From assembly GCF_035285525.1 (NCBI RefSeq), contig NZ_JAYKGW010000047.1:1-32000 (forward strand): a stretch of DNA of 32,000 bases, read 5' to 3'. Shown here piece by piece: positions 8,404-24,694 of the stretch; the stretch's first letter is position 1, and each line of letters starts with the position of its first letter. The position numbers and the translations under genes are program-made. This DNA comes from Okeania sp. (GTDB taxonomy: Bacteria; Cyanobacteriota; Cyanobacteriia; Cyanobacteriales; Microcoleaceae). The notes under the pieces are model-generated. The model ran no database searches. It was given only the letters and a program-made list of their open reading frames with translations, and was not told the DNA's origin.

Positions 8404-8991
8404 TTAATTTTTTTGTTCAATAAAAATCATTCGGGTTCGGATCGGAATACCTTGACTTGAAGAAACCCAACCTATAATAAAATAATCTTCAATAGCATTT
8501 TTAATTACTATTTTTGAATGGTCGTAAACTGGAACAATAAACTTTTTCATATATTCTTCTGTCATTTCATCAAGACTAATTAAAATAGCTTTACGGGCAA
8601 TTCGATAAATATGTTTAATTGCTGTTTCAGCATCTTCAACAAAATGCAATGAACTTAAACAAAAAACCAAATCGTAGGATTGGGAATCAATTTCTGCCAA
8701 AGCAGTTTCTATTGGTTTATGAATAGTTTTATAACCTCTTTTAGCTGCATATTCCAACATATTAGCTGAAATATCAATACCTGTATATTCAAAATCTCCC
8801 TGTAATAATTCACTTAGTAGTCCAGTTCCACAAGCAATATCCAAAATACTACCTTCATTATCATTATTGTGTTGCTGGAAAATTTTCAATGCTTTACTGT
8901 GAAGATTTGCATTAGACTTGCTCTTAGCAACATCATCATATTTGATAGCGTAATTATCATAAAATTCTTCAGCAGAAATTTTGTTCGACAT
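8404..8991 (-). CDS. Class I SAM-dependent methyltransferase
   Basis: 195-aa ORF with motif I ILDIACGTGLLSE and motif post-I/II DLVFCLSSLHF. Very AT-rich coding (a sampled 60-nt line has 17 G+C). Confidence 0.75.
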   Translation of the reverse strand: MSNKISAEEFYDNYAIKYDDVAKSKSNANLHSKALKIFQQHNNDNEGSILDIACGTGLLSELLQGDFEYTGIDISANMLEYAAKRGYKTIHKPIETALAEIDSQSYDLVFCLSSLHFVEDAETAIKHIYRIARKAILISLDEMTEEYMKKFIVPVYDHSKIVIKNAIEDYFIIGWVSSSQGIPIRTRMIFIEQKN

Positions 8992-10789: not shown

Positions 10790-10862
10790 GGAAAATTATT
10801 CTATAGAATCCCTAAGTGTATCTTTTACATCTTCTAAAACTCCTAATTCCTCTTGATTCTTC

Positions 10863-13942: not shown

Positions 13943-14057
13943 TAGGACTTACGCATAAACGCTATTGGTAGGGTATGTTTCGCTACGCGACATGAAAAGC
14001 GCACAACCCACAACGCACCAATACTCTATATATATAGTGCCTCCTGTGTAAGTCCTG
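13943..14057. mobile_element. MITE-like element, family A (long variant)
   Basis: taggacttacgcataaacgctattggtagggtatgtttcgctacgcgacatgaaaagcgcac...ctatatatatagtgcctcctgtgtaagtcctg. Confidence 0.65.
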
Positions 14058-14271
14058 TTTAATTCTTTGTTTAACTTCCTCCCAGTTTGAACCTATTGTA
14101 GAGTTTTCCTCATACAATTCTAAGCGATAATCTAGTTCTTGTTTTTGTTCTTTTGTTTGTTAGCTCAATTTTATCTGGCATATCAGTAATACTATTCCAG
14201 ATATTTTCTATTAATCCTAGTCTTTCTGAAATACTAAGTTGTAAGATTTGGTTTATTAGCTTAGTAGTCAT
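14058..14271 (-). pseudogene. Frameshifted addiction-module antitoxin-like gene (family with ...EQKxELDxRLExY...WEEVKxRI C-terminus)
   Basis: ATG at 14271 gives MTTKLINQILQLSISERLGLIENIWNSITDMPDKIELT, then an early stop. A frame one nt off continues KEQKQELDYRLELYEENSTIGSNWEEVKQRIK and reads into the family-A MITE at 14057. No partner toxin ORF follows. Confidence 0.45.
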
Positions 14272-14326: not shown

Positions 14327-14633
14327 ATACGACTTACCCATCGACGCTACTGGTAGGGTTTGTTTCGCTACGCGACATGAAAAGCGCACTTCGTAACCTA
14401 CCAACACTCTATAGAACCCCTAAACGTATCTTTGCAAAAGTGAGAACTAGGAGACAGGAGTCAGGACTCAGGAGTCAGGAGTTAGGAGTCAGAAGTCAGG
14501 AGTTAGAGAAATAAAATAAGGAATAAAGTAGAAAAATGCCTCCATCTTCCCAAGCTCCCCAACCTCCCCATCTATAAAAAAATAGATCCGGTTAGGGGTT
14601 CTATATATATATAGAGCCTTTGCGTAAGTCCTG
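14327..14633. mobile_element. Family-A MITE interrupted by a nested family-C element
   Basis: The left part atacgacttacccatcgacgctactggtagggtttgtttcgctacgcgacatgaaaagcgcac...caacactctata is followed by the insert. The right part is tatatatatagagcctttgcgtaagtcctg. The uninterrupted relative is at 13943-14057. Confidence 0.6.
14410..14604. mobile_element. MITE-like element, family C, inserted in the TATA core of a family-A MITE
   Basis: tatagaacccctaaacgtatctttgcaaaagtga...(aggagtc)n...ctcccca...tccggttaggggttctata. tata is present on both sides (possible target duplication). Confidence 0.6.
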
Positions 14634-15335: not shown

Positions 15336-15363
15336 AGTGTTTATCCTAGAATTTAATTTGGGT

Positions 15364-15706: not shown

Positions 15707-15830
15707 TATAGTTGGCATTTCATATAGAACCCTTAATCATATCAAATCCGCTTAATTCGGTAGAAAAAAATGTTTTATCTTTAACCATTGCTATATCTTC
15801 CCATACTCCCCACACGAACCACACTCTTTT

Positions 15831-15872
15831 TACACCGATACTACCGGATTTGATATTATGCCCTAACCGGAC
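15831..15872 (+). repeat. Locus-restricted ~28-nt motif, copy 1 (ta.acc.at.ctaccgg.tttgatatta)
   Basis: tacaccgatactaccggatttgatattatgccctaaccggac read directly. See finding. Confidence 0.6.
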
Positions 15873-15881
15873 ATATTTTTT

Positions 15882-15953
15882 TATAGAACCCCTAACCGTA
15901 TCTTTACAAAGAAAGGTGTGTTTTTTTGCAAAGATACAGTTAGGGGTTATATA
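15882..15953. mobile_element. 72-bp near-perfect palindrome, family-C termini only
   Basis: tatagaacccctaaccgtatctttacaaag ... tttgcaaagatacagttaggggttatata. Confidence 0.6.
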
Positions 15954-15974
15954 GACCTGGTTTCTCTACTTTTT

Positions 15975-16010
15975 TATACCAATACTACCGGATTTGATAT
16001 TACAACCTAA
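15975..16010 (+). repeat. Locus-restricted ~28-nt motif, copy 2
   Basis: tataccaatactaccggatttgatattacaacctaa, 144 nt downstream of copy 1. Confidence 0.6.
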
Positions 16011-16131
16011 AGCAGATTTTTAAATGACCTTAAATGGCCAAAGAATAATGGCCTCACTATCTTGATCAGGCTATTTAAAAAAAAGTACATTGTAGATTGC
16101 AATTATGCAAAAGTTCGCCATAATATATATT

Positions 16132-16150
16132 TAGGTCTTTAAAAGACCTA
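16132..16150. promoter_or_regulatory. Perfect 8-3-8 palindrome taggtctt-taa-aagaccta just upstream of the ParM-like gene; candidate operator
   Basis: Read directly. It lies 36 nt before the ATG at 16186, immediately after a taatatatat (-10-like) stretch. Confidence 0.4.
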
Positions 16151-16185
16151 TTAAAAACTTATTGAGAATAATAACAATAAAAATT

Positions 16186-17238
16186 ATGGTAACAACCACA
16201 ATGGACAATCTTGTTAGCTCGTATAAGGAGGAATTAATATCAGACAGTATTTCTATTGGCATTGACAACGGCAACGGACGGATCAAATCCAAATCTAGTA
16301 AAGGTGTAGAGGTTCGGATTAAATCATTAATCCACTATTTAGATGATGAGCAAGAAATAACAGATGGCGGTCAAGAGTCCGTGTTTGTTGAATATGTAGT
16401 AGGTCCCCGCACTGACTTGTGTGGCAAAAGGTTCGTAGTAGGTCAACAAGCTTACCAGTTCGATCCGGTTGGAGTGCTATCAACTTCAGATGATAGAGAA
16501 GGTAAAAGCAAGTTTGCTTTAGAGCTAACCCTAGCTGCAATAGCAGCCAGTATCACAATGGATTATACGGATGTAGGGATCGTATCAAGTGTACATGATC
16601 TTGCAGTCTTGAATGATTTGAAGTCTAAAGTTAATGGAGAACATACAGTCAAGCTGAATAATCAAATCAGAAAAGTAAATCTTGACTTAAAAGCTGTGAA
16701 AACAGAAGGTGTGGGAGCTTATGCTAGCTTGTTGCAGACCAAAAAATGCAGCAAAGAATCCCAGACAGTTTTGCTCGACCTTGGTTATGGAACAGTCATA
16801 GTTTCTGTTTATTCCAACGGCGCTTTCAAACAAATATTGCGATTTCCAGATCTGGGTGTTAAGTCTCTATATCAACGCATTGCTAATAATTTAGATTTGC
16901 GCAAACAGCTAAAACGTAACGGCGATATGCAGCTTATTCAAAAAGCTGTAGAATGCGGTGATTTTGTCTATGGCAACAATAAGATTAGTGAATTTTCCAT
17001 TGCTGAAATTTACAATCAGGAATTGAGAATATGGGTCAAAAACTCACTGGTAAAGGTATTAGGCAAGATTGATAGCTATTTAGATGGCGCTGAGTTTTTG
17101 TTTGCTATTGGTGGCGGTGCTAAACTACCAAAAATCTCTCCCTGGCTTGAAAAAAAAGGTTTTGAGACCATCGAAGATTCCGAGTTTATCAATGCTCGTG
17201 GGTTACTGGCGATCGCACAAAGAGAGGCTAAAAAATGA
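16186..17238 (+). CDS. Actin-like ATPase of the ParM/StbA type
   Basis: Ordered actin-fold motifs are phosphate-1 SIGIDNGNGRIKS, phosphate-2 VLLDLGYGTVIV, adenosine FAIGGGAKLP and C-terminal FINARGLL. Start is uncertain (TTG 16162 per track, ATG 16186, ATG 16201). The stop overlaps the next gene's ATG. Confidence 0.7.
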   Translation: MVTTTMDNLVSSYKEELISDSISIGIDNGNGRIKSKSSKGVEVRIKSLIHYLDDEQEITDGGQESVFVEYVVGPRTDLCGKRFVVGQQAYQFDPVGVLSTSDDREGKSKFALELTLAAIAASITMDYTDVGIVSSVHDLAVLNDLKSKVNGEHTVKLNNQIRKVNLDLKAVKTEGVGAYASLLQTKKCSKESQTVLLDLGYGTVIVSVYSNGAFKQILRFPDLGVKSLYQRIANNLDLRKQLKRNGDMQLIQKAVECGDFVYGNNKISEFSIAEIYNQELRIWVKNSLVKVLGKIDSYLDGAEFLFAIGGGAKLPKISPWLEKKGFETIEDSEFINARGLLAIAQREAKK

Positions 17239-17474
17239 AAAAAAATTGGGCAAGTAGGAAAGTAGTGATCGCGCCTCGCCATATACCCAACTTGGAAAGG
17301 ATTGCCCTAGAGAACCAGTTTGAAAGTCTCTCGGAGACCATAGATTGGGTATTGACTGACTGGCATCGGTGGGTTAACGGATACAACACTCCCAACTTCA
17401 ATCACATTAGCAACCCAGTAGAAAATACTGCTCCTGTTGTTGAGGAGGATGATGATTTACTAGCGGATTTATAG
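17235..17474 (+). CDS. 79-aa ParR-like adaptor candidate (predicted RHH N-terminus, acidic C-terminal tail)
   Basis: ATGA overlap with the upstream gene, and gagagg lies 8-13 nt upstream. RKVVIAPRHIPNLERIALENQFESLSETIDWVL fits a strand-helix-helix pattern. The tail is VVEEDDDLLADL. The functional call is inference. Confidence 0.45.
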   Translation: MKKNWASRKVVIAPRHIPNLERIALENQFESLSETIDWVLTDWHRWVNGYNTPNFNHISNPVENTAPVVEEDDDLLADL

Positions 17475-17678
17475 ATGAAAATTAACTTTCAATTATATTG
17501 ATCTGCCAATCATATTTTCCAATGTACATCCACACATCAAATACTTGAACACAGAAAAACTTTTGTAGACGCTTATAGAACCGAACTTACTTGAGTATAA
17601 GATGAGAATGCAGTAGCTATTTCTGCAAGGTTGATAGTTTTCAGATCATGTCCGTTGAAAATAGTTTGGCAAGAAAAT

Positions 17679-18030: not shown

Positions 18031-18070
18031 GGTCGGGCATTTAATATCAAACCCGGTAGCATCGGTATAA
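18031..18070 (-). repeat. Locus-restricted ~28-nt motif, copy 3 (inverted orientation)
   Basis: The reverse complement reads ttataccgatgctaccgggtttgatattaaatgcccgacc. Confidence 0.6.
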
Positions 18071-19767: not shown

Positions 19768-20085
19768 GTAAGCATTCAGCCGTCAGCCATCAGCTATCAT
19801 CTATTTTTTTTGGTTTTATATAAAATCCGGTTGAATACTCGTTATATAGTTGTCGGAGATGGGGAGATGGGGAGATGGGGAGACGGGGAGACGGGGAGAC
19901 GGGGAGATTGAAGTGTAGATAAAATTATGAACATATACACTTGTAACCGGATTCTATATTAGATGTAAATCTCATCTTTAAGACTATGTTTATAAACATT
20001 TCTCTTAATATAAAACTTTGTAATCGATAGCTTGAAAAACAGAGTCTTGTTGCTGATAGCTGATAGCTAATACCTAAATGCTTAC
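19768..20085. mobile_element. MITE-like element, family B (long copy with nested heptamer/C-like insert)
   Basis: gtaagcattcagccgtcagccatcagctatca ... ttgctgatagctgatagctaatacctaaatgcttac. Confidence 0.6.
19855..19908. repeat. STRR heptamer array (GGGGAGA/GGGGAGAC)n
   Basis: ggagatggggagatggggagatggggagacggggagacggggagacggggagatt read directly. Confidence 0.85.
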
Positions 20086-23476: not shown

Positions 23477-24694
23477 TTAGTCCTGATTGCGGAAGACACG
23501 AGCCATATCCAATACTTTTGCCCAACGTTTTTGTAACTGCTTAGGAGTACATTTGATGGCAGTAGCGATCGCTTTTTCATCTTCACCAGCTTGCTTAAGT
23601 TCTAAAATTTGCTTTTCCTCTGCAGAAAGAGTAGTTAAGAAAGCTTGCCATTTATCAGAAACCATACCTAATTTTTGGTCAATATCAGCTCCTAACCATT
23701 CATGTACTAACTGCCAATTTTGAGAACGAGCAAACTTTTCTACATGATACTTAAAACGTTGTTGTAAGTAATCCCGTTGACGAGAAGTTAAGCCCAACTT
23801 TTTATCAATATCAGATGCTTGATAATCTTGTAGTCTTAATTTTAGATAATCAATACATTCGTCTTGTCCAGCTTCCTCTAAGTATTTGACTAACTCAGAA
23901 ATTACGCGATCGCGCAACACAGCTTCAGCAGGGTCAACAGTCTCTGCAACCATTTGTTCCCGCACTTGTTGGACAGCAGAAGAGCGACTATGAGCTTCTC
24001 CCTCTTCACCTTTAGGAGACTCAACTGCCATTTCAATATCAATTGCAGTTTCGGGAGGTTGACCTTTAGCAAAACTCTGAGCGCGTAACACAATTAATCT
24101 TTGACGGTTGCGACCAGGTAAACCAATTTGGCGTTTCGCGTATTGTTCAGTGAATGTCATGTATTCTGCTAATTCTAACTTTACTTTAGGAGTATAGTCT
24201 TGGTCTAAACCATGCTCCCGACGGAAAGCTCGTAGACACTCAATATAAAATCCTTGTAAAAAATCCTCAATCATGTTATAACGACCTTGGAAATTTAACT
24301 GAGTTCCATAAGCAGCAATATGACGATAAACCATTGAAGCTAGGAGAGAGTGTAATTCTACACGACCTCTATGAGAACCGAGTTTGTAATATTCTAAGCA
24401 CTTTTCCCAACGATGGCGTGCCAAACTAAGTTGCCAGGAACGAACTTCACCAGAATTTTGAATCCTATTACTTTTTAAACAAATTCTTTCTACTTCTTTA
24501 GCTATCCGTAGAGCTACAGTTTTAGCTTTTGCTGGCTTACTTTTTGCACCATCTTGCAACTCTTTTAAGACCACACCAGCTAAAGCTTCTGTATCCATTT
24601 CTAGTGCATTATTTGTTGTAGTTTGATTTTCAAGTTGGTTGTGATTAACTTTTGCAGTAGTAGAGTTTTGGGAGTTAGCAGTCTTAATAGTCAT
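23477..24694 (-). CDS. hetZ: HetZ-family protein (heterocyst differentiation regulator HetZ or a HetZ-related paralogue)
   Basis: 405 aa with a low-complexity N-terminus. The block SWQLSLARHRWEKCLEYYKLGSHRGRVELHSLLASMVYRHI matches my recollection of HetZ alignments. The C-terminal HTH-like segment is EEKQILELKQAGEDEKAIATAIKCTPKQLQKRWAKV. About 1 kb of non-coding DNA lies upstream. Not verified by search. Confidence 0.5.
   Translation of the reverse strand: MTIKTANSQNSTTAKVNHNQLENQTTTNNALEMDTEALAGVVLKELQDGAKSKPAKAKTVALRIAKEVERICLKSNRIQNSGEVRSWQLSLARHRWEKCLEYYKLGSHRGRVELHSLLASMVYRHIAAYGTQLNFQGRYNMIEDFLQGFYIECLRAFRREHGLDQDYTPKVKLELAEYMTFTEQYAKRQIGLPGRNRQRLIVLRAQSFAKGQPPETAIDIEMAVESPKGEEGEAHSRSSAVQQVREQMVAETVDPAEAVLRDRVISELVKYLEEAGQDECIDYLKLRLQDYQASDIDKKLGLTSRQRDYLQQRFKYHVEKFARSQNWQLVHEWLGADIDQKLGMVSDKWQAFLTTLSAEEKQILELKQAGEDEKAIATAIKCTPKQLQKRWAKVLDMARVFRNQD

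What the first reader, a model, noticed from the sequence alone, without database searches (positions are those of the whole stretch)
16186..17474. Chromosomal ParM-like actin ATPase plus small RHH-like adaptor operon in a housekeeping context
Seen: the 16186-17238 ORF carries the actin-fold ATPase signatures in canonical order. These are phosphate-1 SIGIDNGNGRIKS, phosphate-2 VLLDLGYGTVIV, adenosine FAIGGGAKLP and a C-terminal FINARGLL, as in ParM/StbA-type proteins. Its TGA overlaps the ATG of a 79-codon ORF (ATGA at 17235-17238). That ORF has an N-terminus (RKVVIAPRHIPNLERIALENQFESLSETIDWVL) fitting a ribbon-helix-helix pattern. It ends in an acidic-hydrophobic tail (VVEEDDDLLADL). Established: type II plasmid partition uses ParM, a small RHH protein ParR and centromere repeats, and the ParR C-terminal peptide docks on ParM filaments. 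Unusual: the neighbours are bioD, psbY and a gamma-CA-like gene. No replication, relaxase, integrase, phage or transposase gene occurs anywhere in the 32 kb. Composition looks like the flanking core genes. Inference: this is a domesticated chromosomal actin-like filament system. It might act in positioning of genome copies or cellular structures, or in cell shape in a filamentous cyanobacterium, or it may be the last relic of an integrated plasmid. I cannot tell from sequence alone whether homologues have been characterised.
Basis: partly seen in the sequence, partly recalled or inferred. Interest (0 to 1): 0.85.

Follow-up and report, generated by a model that had tools for sequence, protein, structure and literature searches.

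The report
Stranded plasmid-type ParM/ParR cassette in chromosome
A marine filamentous cyanobacterium (Okeania) carries on its chromosome an intact actin-like ParM gene and its small partner gene, cut out of a plasmid-like mobile element and apparently still kept working; this is a fresh example of a known phenomenon and is not the cell-shape CorMR/FcmBC cytoskeleton.

Summary
ORF 16186-17238 is a ParM/Alp-type actin-fold ATPase by Pfam ALP_N, PHROG "partition protein" and fold matches to solved ParMs. It overlaps by ATGA a conserved 79-codon ORF with a ParR-like layout. The 32 kb window is chromosomal housekeeping DNA of an Okeania sp.

The pair is not a conserved chromosomal system. About 1.57 kb (roughly 16005-17571) is all that remains of a family of plasmid-like integrative elements found in Okeania, Trichodesmium and other Microcoleaceae. 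Those elements carry a Prim-Pol/DUF3987 replicase, a CI-like HTH protein, a P-loop module shared with Planktothrix plasmids, and a tyrosine integrase. Four related genomes keep the bioD-side synteny but have no parM there.

It is not a CorM/FcmB orthologue. Identity to the CorM structure is 17%, while true orthologues share at least 55%. There is no long N-terminal disordered region, the partner is 79 aa rather than 162 aa, and it has no amphipathic helix.

Both genes are nevertheless intact and strongly constrained. Against an 89%-identical sister lineage with the same trimmed layout, dN/dS is 0.02-0.04, lower than for the neighbouring housekeeping genes.

Verdict: a new member of a known kind (chromosomal, element-derived ParMR). 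The cassette is probably still functional, its cellular role is unknown, and interest is moderate to low.

The parts
16186..17238 (+). parM-like gene: a 350-aa actin-fold (ParM/Alp/StbA-type) ATPase
   Evidence: Pfam ALP_N is above its cut-off. PHROG 691 'partition protein' scores 4.8e-26. A family profile hits pCBH ParM at 4.9e-9. Foldseek top hits are solved ParMs and CorM. Nucleotide-binding residues are invariant in the family. The sequence is identical to NCBI 'ParM/StbA family protein [Okeania sp.]'.
17235..17474 (+). ParR-like adaptor gene of 79 aa. It has a basic N-terminal arm, an extended segment and two helices (residues 8-47), a variable linker, and the acidic-hydrophobic tail EEDDDLLADL.
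   Evidence: It overlaps parM in ATGA. It is conserved in 19 clusters and lies immediately 3' of parM wherever the related contig extends past the parM stop. In the AF2 model residues 8-13 are extended and helices span 14-27 and 32-47 at pLDDT >=90, with a disordered tail. Foldseek top hits are RHH-type folds but E >= 1. dN/dS is 0.019 against the sister lineage.
16085..16124 (+). Conserved promoter/operator of the cassette: near-palindromic GTACATTGTA at 16085-16094, -35 TTGCAA at 16097-16102 and -10 CATAAT at 16119-16124
   Evidence: These columns are conserved with the element copies. The promoter scan finds the site. The GTACAnTGTAC motif recurs at other promoter-like sites in the elements.
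16005..16084 (+). Probable remnant of the 3' end of the element's upstream CI-like HTH gene and its degenerate terminator hairpin. This marks the left end of the element-derived DNA.
   Evidence: Alignment with L002 and L005. The similarity is weak, about 60-70%, so the exact boundary is approximate.
17495..17571 (+). Conserved non-coding block that in the elements lies several small ORFs downstream of parR, ahead of the next operon. Positions 17521-17552 are 100% identical to the sister lineage. This marks the right end of the element-derived DNA.
   Evidence: blastn gives 80-86% identity to L005, L009, L021 and L022. The alignment with L024-L026 shows the identical 32-nt block.
15718..16000 (.). 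Cluster of dispersed genome repeats (families TATAGAACCCCTAAC... and ATACTACCGGATTTGATAT, plus a 33-nt-arm hairpin at 15882-15953) abutting the left junction. This is not a centromere.
   Evidence: Copies also occur at 10802, 14410, 14585, 18044 and 19818 and in intergenic DNA of related genomes.
17574..17582 (+). A TATAGAACC repeat seed located exactly at the right junction
   Evidence: The 9-mer occurs 5 times in the window, all between 14410 and 17574. Sister-lineage contigs end here.

Best explanation
This is an orphan type II partition-like cassette: a promoter, a parM-like actin ATPase gene and a ParR-like adaptor gene. It was left in the Okeania chromosome by a plasmid-like integrative element. 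The element family is common in Okeania, Trichodesmium and other Microcoleaceae. Everything else from the element has been deleted, and the remnant sits at a lineage-specific synteny breakpoint between bioD and psbY, bracketed by dispersed repeats. The two genes are still functional. Inferred mechanism: ParM polymerises with ATP into actin-like filaments. Dimers of the small protein bind DNA through the basic N-terminal arm and beta-ribbon. This head is almost unchanged from the mobile copies, so it most likely still recognises the element family's site(s). The acidic-hydrophobic C-terminal tail captures the filament. The cassette therefore most likely still acts on DNA. It could act in cis at its own retained non-coding blocks, in trans on resident sister elements, or both. 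It is not a membrane-anchored cell-shape cytoskeleton. Shown here: identity, fold, origin, chromosomal location, lineage specificity, purifying selection. Inferred: polymerisation, DNA binding, tail docking, cellular role.
For: ParM identity rests.

Origin from a mobile element:
- The nearest relatives (71-74% aa) lie in a syntenic, co-directional backbone of about 20 genes in L002-L005, L009, L010, L012, L013, L021, L022 and L027-L030.
- That backbone includes a CI-like HTH gene directly upstream of parM.
- It also includes Prim-Pol/Zn-ribbon/DUF3987 replicases and tyrosine integrases.
- It carries a P-loop module shared with circular Planktothrix plasmids.
- The window matches these elements only from about 16005 to 17571.
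- ParM homologues occur on 207 PLSDB plasmids, mostly cyanobacterial plus Enterococcus.

Lineage specificity: the bioD-M20-SH3-PRK synteny is kept in Dapis BLCC M126 and in Okeania SIO3I5, SIO2G4 and SIO2B3. Homology stops at window position 15359, and none of these genomes has parM or psbY there.

Functional retention:
- Both ORFs are intact and the catalytic residues are kept.
- Against the sister lineage L024-L026 (89% nt identity, same trimmed layout and right junction), parR has dN/dS 0.019 at dS 0.57.
- The 3' 104 codons of parM have dN/dS 0.041 at dS 0.40.
- Flanking host genes at similar dS (0.33-0.59) have dN/dS 0.08-0.15.
- A 32-nt non-coding block is identical between the two lineages.

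DNA-binding head retained: the N-terminal 48 aa are nearly invariant between mobile and chromosomal copies.
Against: No iterated centromere-like (parC) repeats were found next to the cassette, either in the window or in the elements. The repeats upstream are genome-wide dispersed repeats. The RHH fold of the small protein has no statistically significant support. The chromosomal context of the sister lineage is inferred from only about 20 nt beyond the junction on 650-680 bp contigs. The purifying selection could therefore partly reflect life on an unsampled element. The complex was not modelled. No expression or polymerisation data exist. Whether complete sister elements coexist in this genome is unknown.
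Confidence: 0.6

Rival explanations
1. The pair is an inert relic. It is a recently stranded fragment of an integrated element that has simply not yet accumulated disabling mutations and does nothing for the cell.
For: The pair is lineage-specific and absent at this locus in four related genomes. All other element genes are gone. No centromere repeats were found. The cognate upstream HTH regulator has been lost. The relic sits among dispersed repeats at a rearrangement hotspot.
Against: dN/dS is 0.02-0.04 over dS 0.4-0.57 against a sister lineage that shares the same trimmed arrangement and junction. This is stronger constraint than on neighbouring housekeeping genes. Deletions removed the DNA on both sides to within about 180 bp upstream and 100 bp downstream, yet left a 1.3 kb operon and its promoter intact.
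Confidence: 0.2
2. The pair is the Okeania orthologue, or a functional analogue, of CorMR/FcmBC. In that system a membrane-anchored cortical actin-like cytoskeleton controls cell shape in filamentous cyanobacteria.
For: It is a chromosomal parM-parR pair in a filamentous Oscillatoriales cyanobacterium, which is the group where CorMR/FcmBC occurs. CorM (9rmi) is among the top fold matches.
Against: Identity to CorM 9rmi_A is 17%, no better than to Firmicute ParMs. FcmB orthologues share 55-57% identity between Trichodesmium and Nostocales. No Nostocales protein appears among the 13 hits in 5.8 billion proteins. The N-terminal disordered leader is about 18-24 aa, not about 40. The partner is 79 aa rather than 162 aa. 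Its N-terminus has helical hydrophobic moment 0.13-0.17, against 0.41-0.66 for known membrane-targeting helices. It is not vertically inherited at this locus, and its nearest relatives are on mobile elements.
Confidence: 0.05
3. The window is not chromosomal. The contig is a large plasmid or lies inside a still-complete mobile element, so this is an ordinary plasmid partition locus.
For: The ParM family lives on plasmid-like elements and plasmids.
Against: The flanks carry core genes such as PRK, ilvH, psbY, bioD and Sua5. These are syntenic with 121-127 kb contigs of related genomes. No other element protein matches anywhere in the 32 kb.
Confidence: 0.03

Closest known systems
Plasmid type II partition systems ParMRC (R1 ParM/ParR/parC; pSK41, pCBH and B. 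thuringiensis ParMs; cyanobacterial plasmid ParM/StbA genes)
   Same: The ParM actin fold and nucleotide-binding motifs match. A co-oriented small downstream adaptor gene has an N-terminal beta-alpha-alpha head and a C-terminal tail. The promoter lies directly upstream. Sequence or fold matches are reported. The mobile relatives of the window pair sit in plasmid-like elements.
   Different: The window copy is chromosomal and stripped of replication genes and every other element gene. No iterated parC repeats were recognised. Identity to any plasmid ParM in PLSDB is at most 33%.
CorMR (Anabaena sp. PCC 7120; bioRxiv 10.1101/2025.06.27.661541), the same system as FcmBC (Nostoc punctiforme; PMC12645912)
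   Same: A chromosomally encoded parM-parR-like gene pair in a filamentous cyanobacterium, evolutionarily derived from plasmid partition systems.
   Different: It belongs to a different clade (17% identity against at least 55% within FcmB). It has no ~40-aa N-terminal disordered region. The partner is 79 aa rather than 162 aa, has no N-terminal amphipathic helix, and keeps the head of the mobile copies. The pair is lineage-specific rather than vertically inherited across Nostocales and Oscillatoriales.
Genome-encoded ParMs (Dh-cParM1 of Desulfitobacterium hafniense, Cb-cParM of Clostridium botulinum; PMC12270681) and the many chromosomal ParMR hits listed by Springstein et al.
   Same: These are chromosomal ParM cassettes with putative RHH ParRs, of unknown cellular role, thought to have been exchanged with mobile elements. 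Dh-cParM1 (8x1i) is a fold match.
   Different: The phylum is different and sequence identity is low. Here the donor element family can be identified, and the boundaries of the remnant can be mapped to within tens of bases.

Membership tests
ParM/Alp actin-like partition ATPases (Pfam ALP_N; NCBI 'ParM/StbA family') | Significant match to the family model | tested here: met
   PF17989 scores 31.5 bits against a cut-off of 26.3. PHROG 691 'partition protein' scores 4.8e-26 over the full length. The family profile hits pCBH ParM at 4.9e-9.
ParM/Alp actin-like partition ATPases (Pfam ALP_N; NCBI 'ParM/StbA family') | Actin-fold nucleotide-binding motifs in canonical order: phosphate-1 DxGxG..K, catalytic E, phosphate-2 DxGxGT, adenosine GGG | tested here: met
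   D27, G29, G31, K34, E174, G175, D198, G200, G202, T203 and G309-G311 are invariant in the 12-sequence family alignment. They align to the corresponding pCBH ParM motifs.
ParM/Alp actin-like partition ATPases (Pfam ALP_N; NCBI 'ParM/StbA family') | Predicted fold is closest to solved ParM structures rather than to MreB, FtsA or Hsp70 | tested here: met
   Foldseek ranks 1-27 are ParM, Ta0583, CorM, Alp12 and AlfA structures (E 3e-17 to 3e-9). The first Hsp70-type hit (DnaK nucleotide-binding domain) is rank 28, and MamK, MreB and other Hsp70 structures follow at E >= 1.5e-8. The model is only of moderate quality (pLDDT 71).
ParM/Alp actin-like partition ATPases (Pfam ALP_N; NCBI 'ParM/StbA family') | Nucleotide-dependent polymerisation into filaments | not testable with these tools
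   This needs purified protein.
Type II partition system (ParM + ParR + parC) | Small co-oriented adaptor gene adjacent to parM, conserved in linkage | tested here: met
   The two ORFs overlap in ATGA. A homologous small ORF follows parM in every related locus whose contig extends past the parM stop.
Type II partition system (ParM + ParR + parC) | The adaptor is a ribbon-helix-helix DNA-binding protein | tested here: inconclusive
   AF2 gives an extended segment at 8-13 and helices at 14-27 and 32-47 with pLDDT >=90. The top Foldseek hits are RHH-type (TCP domain, ParD, NikR) but all have E >= 1. There is no Pfam, NCBIfam or PDB sequence support.
Type II partition system (ParM + ParR + parC) | The adaptor's C-terminal peptide docks on ParM | not testable with these tools
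   Only the pattern could be checked. The linker is disordered and variable, and the tail is conserved and acidic-hydrophobic (D[FY]DPLEGL in the elements, EEDDDLLADL here). No complex prediction was available.
Type II partition system (ParM + ParR + parC) | Centromere (parC) made of iterated repeats next to the operon | tested here: inconclusive
   No iterated repeats were found upstream in the window or in 7 element copies. The repeats at 15718-16000 are dispersed genome repeats. Two candidate single sites remain untested: GTACATTGTA at 16085 and the conserved block 17495-17571.
Type II partition system (ParM + ParR + parC) | Carried by the replicon it partitions (a plasmid or other extrachromosomal element) | tested here: not met
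   The window copy is chromosomal and has no replication genes. Its relatives do lie in plasmid-like elements.
CorMR / FcmBC cortical cytoskeleton | Membership of the conserved chromosomal clade, within which orthologues are >=55% identical from Trichodesmium to Nostocales | tested here: not met
   Identity to CorM 9rmi_A is 17% in the structural alignment. No Nostocales or T. erythraeum protein appears among the hits. The identity matrix is in PMC12645912 Data Set S1. No direct sequence alignment to CorM was possible because its sequence could not be retrieved.
CorMR / FcmBC cortical cytoskeleton | [quoted passage not shown] | tested here: not met
   Only 18-24 residues precede strand 1, and pLDDT is below 50 for residues 1-18. 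The mobile copies have the same length.
CorMR / FcmBC cortical cytoskeleton | CorR is about 162 aa, with an N-terminal amphipathic membrane-binding helix and split helices H5a/H5b | tested here: not met
   The partner is 79 aa. The first 11 residues, MKKNWASRKVV, have hydrophobic moment 0.13-0.17, against 0.41-0.66 for the MinD, FtsA and MreB targeting helices (those reference peptides were recalled from memory).
CorMR / FcmBC cortical cytoskeleton | Vertically inherited chromosomal locus | tested here: not met
   The pair is absent from the orthologous bioD flank in four related genomes. Its nearest relatives are on mobile elements.

The most novel reading that the evidence does not exclude
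This would be a second domestication of a ParMR module in filamentous cyanobacteria, independent of CorMR. In this reading the Okeania lineage kept only the filament and adaptor pair of a plasmid-like element, together with one or two short cis sites. Unlike CorR, the adaptor kept its DNA-binding head. The system would then work on DNA in one of two ways. It could move copies of the polyploid chromosome. Alternatively, it could act in trans on incoming or resident sister elements through partition-based incompatibility, making it a chromosomal 'immunity' against related plasmids.
Probability: 0.2. Interest if true: 0.6.

Novelty: new member of a known kind. Interest (0 to 1): 0.33.

Why it matters
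Chromosomal ParMR cassettes are now known to be common, and one clade (CorMR/FcmBC) has become a cell-shape cytoskeleton. The intermediate steps from plasmid partition module to host function are still poorly documented. Here the donor element family, both deletion boundaries and the selective regime can all be read from sequence. That makes this a clean snapshot of an early 'captured' stage. It also reveals an uncharacterised family of ParMR-bearing plasmid-like integrative elements in the ecologically important Okeania/Trichodesmium group. If the cassette proved to act on chromosome copies or against sister elements, it would be a new use of an actin-like segregation machine. If not, it is an ordinary remnant.

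Tried and rejected
1. Upstream repeats (15718-16000) as parC: rejected. Both repeat families recur elsewhere in the window and in intergenic DNA of related genomes.
2. P0134 (Fischerella PCC 9605, 399 aa, disordered-looking N-terminus) as a CorM proxy: rejected. PMC12645912 Table S3 names a different protein (WP_026734259.1) as the Fischerella FcmB. Results are therefore not used as CorM evidence.
3. Retrieving the CorM sequence itself: failed. PDB sequence searches with family members did not return 9rmi, and primers were not in the held supplements. Only the Foldseek comparison is available.
4. Viral origin: no relative was found in IMG/VR. PHROGs matched only the replicases and the HTH protein.
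5. Defence system: no PADLOC match.
6. RNA element near the cassette: only sub-threshold hairpin hits on the repeat at 15877-15958.
7. Sequence-level RHH assignment: no Pfam, NCBIfam or PDB profile hit.
8. Circularity of the element contigs: no terminal overlaps.
9. dN/dS against the mobile copies: dS is saturated, so only an upper bound of about 0.1 on dN/dS is usable.
10. JGI metagenome scan for longer sister-lineage contigs: it found only ordinary element copies.
Full report
OBSERVATION

A 350-codon ORF runs 16186-17238 on the + strand; a TTG 24 nt upstream would give 358 aa. Its TGA overlaps the ATG of a 79-codon ORF at 17235-17474.

Evidence that the large protein is a ParM-type actin-like ATPase:
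- It passes Pfam's ALP_N model (31.5 bits, cut-off 26.3).
- It matches PHROG 691 'partition protein' end to end (E 4.8e-26).
- It is identical to an NCBI entry 'ParM/StbA family protein [Okeania sp.]'.
- A profile of the family finds pCBH ParM and Alp12 among PDB sequences.
- An AlphaFold2 model (pLDDT 71, pTM 0.69) has as best structural neighbours pSK41 ParM, Ta0583, CorM, B. thuringiensis ParM, pCBH ParM, Alp12, Dh-cParM1, R1 ParM and AlfA. These rank ahead of Hsp70-type domains, MamK and MreB.
- The phosphate-1, catalytic glutamate, phosphate-2 and adenosine residues are invariant in the family.

The rest of the 32 kb encodes housekeeping functions: AHAS small subunit, a pseudouridine synthase, phosphoribulokinase, an M20 peptidase, BioD, PsbY, a hexapeptide gamma-CA-like protein, DUF2396, Sua5/YrdC and LarC. 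There is no tRNA, and no other protein of the related mobile elements matches the window. The organism is Okeania (Oscillatoriales), not a Nostocales species.

WHERE THE PAIR COMES FROM

The family is small. Only 13 ParM clusters and 19 small-ORF clusters were found among 5.8 billion proteins. An exhaustive HMMER search found 492 representatives.

Every related locus with enough flanking sequence shows the pair inside the same co-directional backbone of about 20 mostly unannotated genes. This holds for ParMs at 71-74% identity, and also for lineages at 45% and 37%. The backbone contains:
- a CI-like HTH gene immediately upstream of parM;
- small ORFs downstream of the pair;
- a four-gene module around a ~490-aa P-loop protein, which recurs on circular Planktothrix plasmids;
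- Prim-Pol/Zn-ribbon/DUF3987 replicases of 1000-1300 aa;
- an ImmA-like peptidase and tyrosine integrases lying next to host-type genes.

These are plasmid-like integrative elements of Okeania, Trichodesmium and other Microcoleaceae. None was found in IMG/VR. More distant ParM homologues (28-33% identity) sit on 207 PLSDB plasmids, mainly from Nostoc, Tolypothrix, Calothrix, Scytonema and Oscillatoria, plus Enterococcus.

EXTENT OF THE REMNANT

The window shares with these elements only about 16005-17571. That stretch contains:
- a weak remnant of the 3' end and terminator of the HTH gene;
- the conserved promoter (GTACATTGTA, -35 TTGCAA, -10 CATAAT);
- parM and the small ORF;
- a conserved non-coding block directly after the small ORF. 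In the elements this block lies beyond two or three small ORFs.

Both junctions abut dispersed repeats. The TATAGAACC seed occurs five times in the window, all between 14410 and 17574, and one copy lies exactly at the right junction.

IS IT A CONSERVED CHROMOSOMAL FEATURE?

No. In Dapis sp. BLCC M126 and Okeania spp. SIO3I5, SIO2G4 and SIO2B3 the bioD-M20-SH3-PRK side is syntenic with the window. Homology stops at window position 15359, just past the bioD start. The neighbour on that side differs in each genome, and none has parM or psbY there. A scan of GTDB species genomes found only six loci of the family. The five cyanobacterial ones match the element backbone as far as their contigs reach; the sixth, from an uncultured bacterium, lies near a related DUF3987-type replicase.

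IS IT STILL USED?

Against the element copies, dS is saturated and dN/dS is at most about 0.1. This says nothing about the period after capture.

A better comparison comes from three independent metagenome assemblies. They contain an 89%-identical sister (L024-L026) covering window 16922-17579. The sister shares the same deletion of the small ORFs. It also shares the same sequence for about 20 nt beyond the end of element homology, into the repeat where all three contigs stop.
- The small ORF has 21 nucleotide but only 2 amino-acid differences (dN/dS 0.019, dS 0.57).
- The last 104 codons of parM have 24 nucleotide and 4 amino-acid differences (dN/dS 0.041, dS 0.40).
- For calibration, bioD, the M20 peptidase and PRK compared with the closest sequenced relatives have dS 0.33-0.59 and dN/dS 0.08-0.15.
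- A 32-nt non-coding block (17521-17552) is identical in both lineages.

Both proteins, and possibly a cis site, have therefore been under strong constraint over a species-level divergence. One caveat applies. The chromosomal context of the sister lineage rests on very short contigs.

THE SMALL PROTEIN

Its first 48 residues are almost invariant across mobile and chromosomal copies. The linker varies. The tail is acidic-hydrophobic: D[FY]DPLEGL in the elements and EEDDDLLADL here.

AlphaFold2 gives an extended segment at 8-13, helices at 14-27 and 32-47 with pLDDT >=90, and a disordered tail. This is RHH topology. The top Foldseek hits are RHH-type folds (TCP domain, ParD, NikR), but none is significant. 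No sequence model supports the assignment.

The N-terminus is a basic arm (+4) with a low helical hydrophobic moment of 0.13-0.17. Classical membrane-targeting helices score 0.41-0.66.

No iterated parC-like repeats were found. The palindromic GTACAnTGTAC motif at the promoter also occurs at other promoters of the elements. It may therefore belong to another regulator.

RELATION TO WHAT IS KNOWN

Two 2025 studies describe a chromosomal ParMR of Nostocales and Oscillatoriales that controls cell shape. One calls it CorMR (bioRxiv 10.1101/2025.06.27.661541). The other calls it FcmBC (PMC12645912). They are the same system, because FcmB of PCC 7120 is WP_044522477.1, which is CorM.

Their defining features are all absent from the window pair:
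- CorM has a ~40-aa N-terminal disordered region. The window ParM has about 20 residues before the first strand.
- CorR is 162 aa with an N-terminal amphipathic helix and has lost DNA binding. The window partner is 79 aa with no amphipathic helix and keeps the mobile copies' head.
- CorMR is vertically inherited on the chromosome. The window pair is lineage-specific.
- FcmB orthologues are 55-57% identical even between Trichodesmium and Nostocales. The window ParM is 17% identical to the CorM structure, no closer than to Firmicute ParMs.

Because Trichodesmium has an FcmB, Okeania probably has its own elsewhere. The window pair would then be an additional system.

Chromosomal ParMR cassettes outside the CorM clade are already catalogued. 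Supplementary File 1 of the CorMR study lists several per genome. Two Firmicute examples polymerise in vitro (PMC12270681).

VERDICT

The finding is real and correctly recognised as ParM plus a ParR-like adaptor on a chromosome. It is best described as a captured, trimmed partition cassette from a plasmid-like integrative element. It is probably still functional and probably still DNA-directed, and its cellular role is unknown. It is a new member of a known kind.

The more interesting reading cannot be excluded but is not supported by direct evidence. That reading is an independent domestication acting on chromosome copies or against sister elements.

Noticed in passing
L002, L005, L009, L012, L013, L022, L027-L029 (related loci); for example L002 1-13044 and L022 2000-16500: An uncharacterised family of plasmid-like integrative elements in Okeania, Trichodesmium and other Microcoleaceae. 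The ~20-gene co-directional backbone has almost no Pfam hits. Recognisable parts are CI-like HTH genes, parM/parR, a ~490-aa P-loop protein module shared with circular Planktothrix plasmids, Prim-Pol/DUF3987 replicases, an ImmA-like M78 peptidase and a tyrosine integrase. Several divergent lineages occur within one genus (ParM identities of 37%, 45% and 74% to the window copy).
   Followed up: partly
window 15718-16000, 14410-14430, 14585-14605, 10802-10822, 17574-17582, 18044-18062, 19818-19836: Two families of short dispersed repeats (TATAGAACCCCTAACCGTATC-like and ATACTACCGGATTTGATAT-like) sit in intergenic DNA. They include a 33-nt-arm hairpin at 15882-15953. They cluster around bioD and at both junctions of the parMR remnant, and copies occur in intergenic regions of related Okeania genomes. 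They may be MITE-like elements or recombination hotspots.
   Followed up: partly
window 15336-15360 (boundary just upstream of bioD): The flank upstream of bioD is a synteny breakpoint. The neighbour differs in each of four related genomes: a giant kinase in Dapis, ExoD/AdoHcyase in Okeania SIO3I5, and an MS channel in SIO2G4 and SIO2B3. The bioD-M20-SH3-PRK-methyltransferase side is conserved in all of them.
   Followed up: yes
window 17521-17552: A 32-nt non-coding block (AATGTACATCCACACATCAAATACTTGAACAC) is 100% identical to a sister lineage whose synonymous sites differ by about 0.4-0.6. It is also conserved (80-86%) ahead of the next operon in the mobile elements. It could be a promoter or 5' leader, a centromere-like site or a small RNA. 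A transcript starting here would run antisense into psbY.
   Followed up: partly
L002 11995-12018 and 12338-12348; L009 10584-10601 and 10852-10862; window 16085-16094: The palindromic motif GTACA(N)TGTAC occurs singly at the parM promoter. It occurs in tandem or overlapping copies upstream of the ~195-aa gene of the elements. It is a likely operator for an element-encoded regulator that the window no longer encodes.
   Followed up: partly
window 13983-14271 (- strand): A truncated antitoxin-like ORF lies between the M20 peptidase gene and bioD. Its Pfam Unstab_antitox match is below the cut-off (E 5e-4). It is probably a decayed toxin-antitoxin remnant.
   Followed up: partly
window 8404-8991 versus L015 12114-14693: The single SAM-methyltransferase gene of the window corresponds to four tandem paralogues in Dapis sp. 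BLCC M126. This indicates copy-number variation of that gene among close relatives.
   Followed up: no
window 23477-24694 (- strand): A 405-aa ORF has no Pfam match at E <= 0.001.
   Followed up: no
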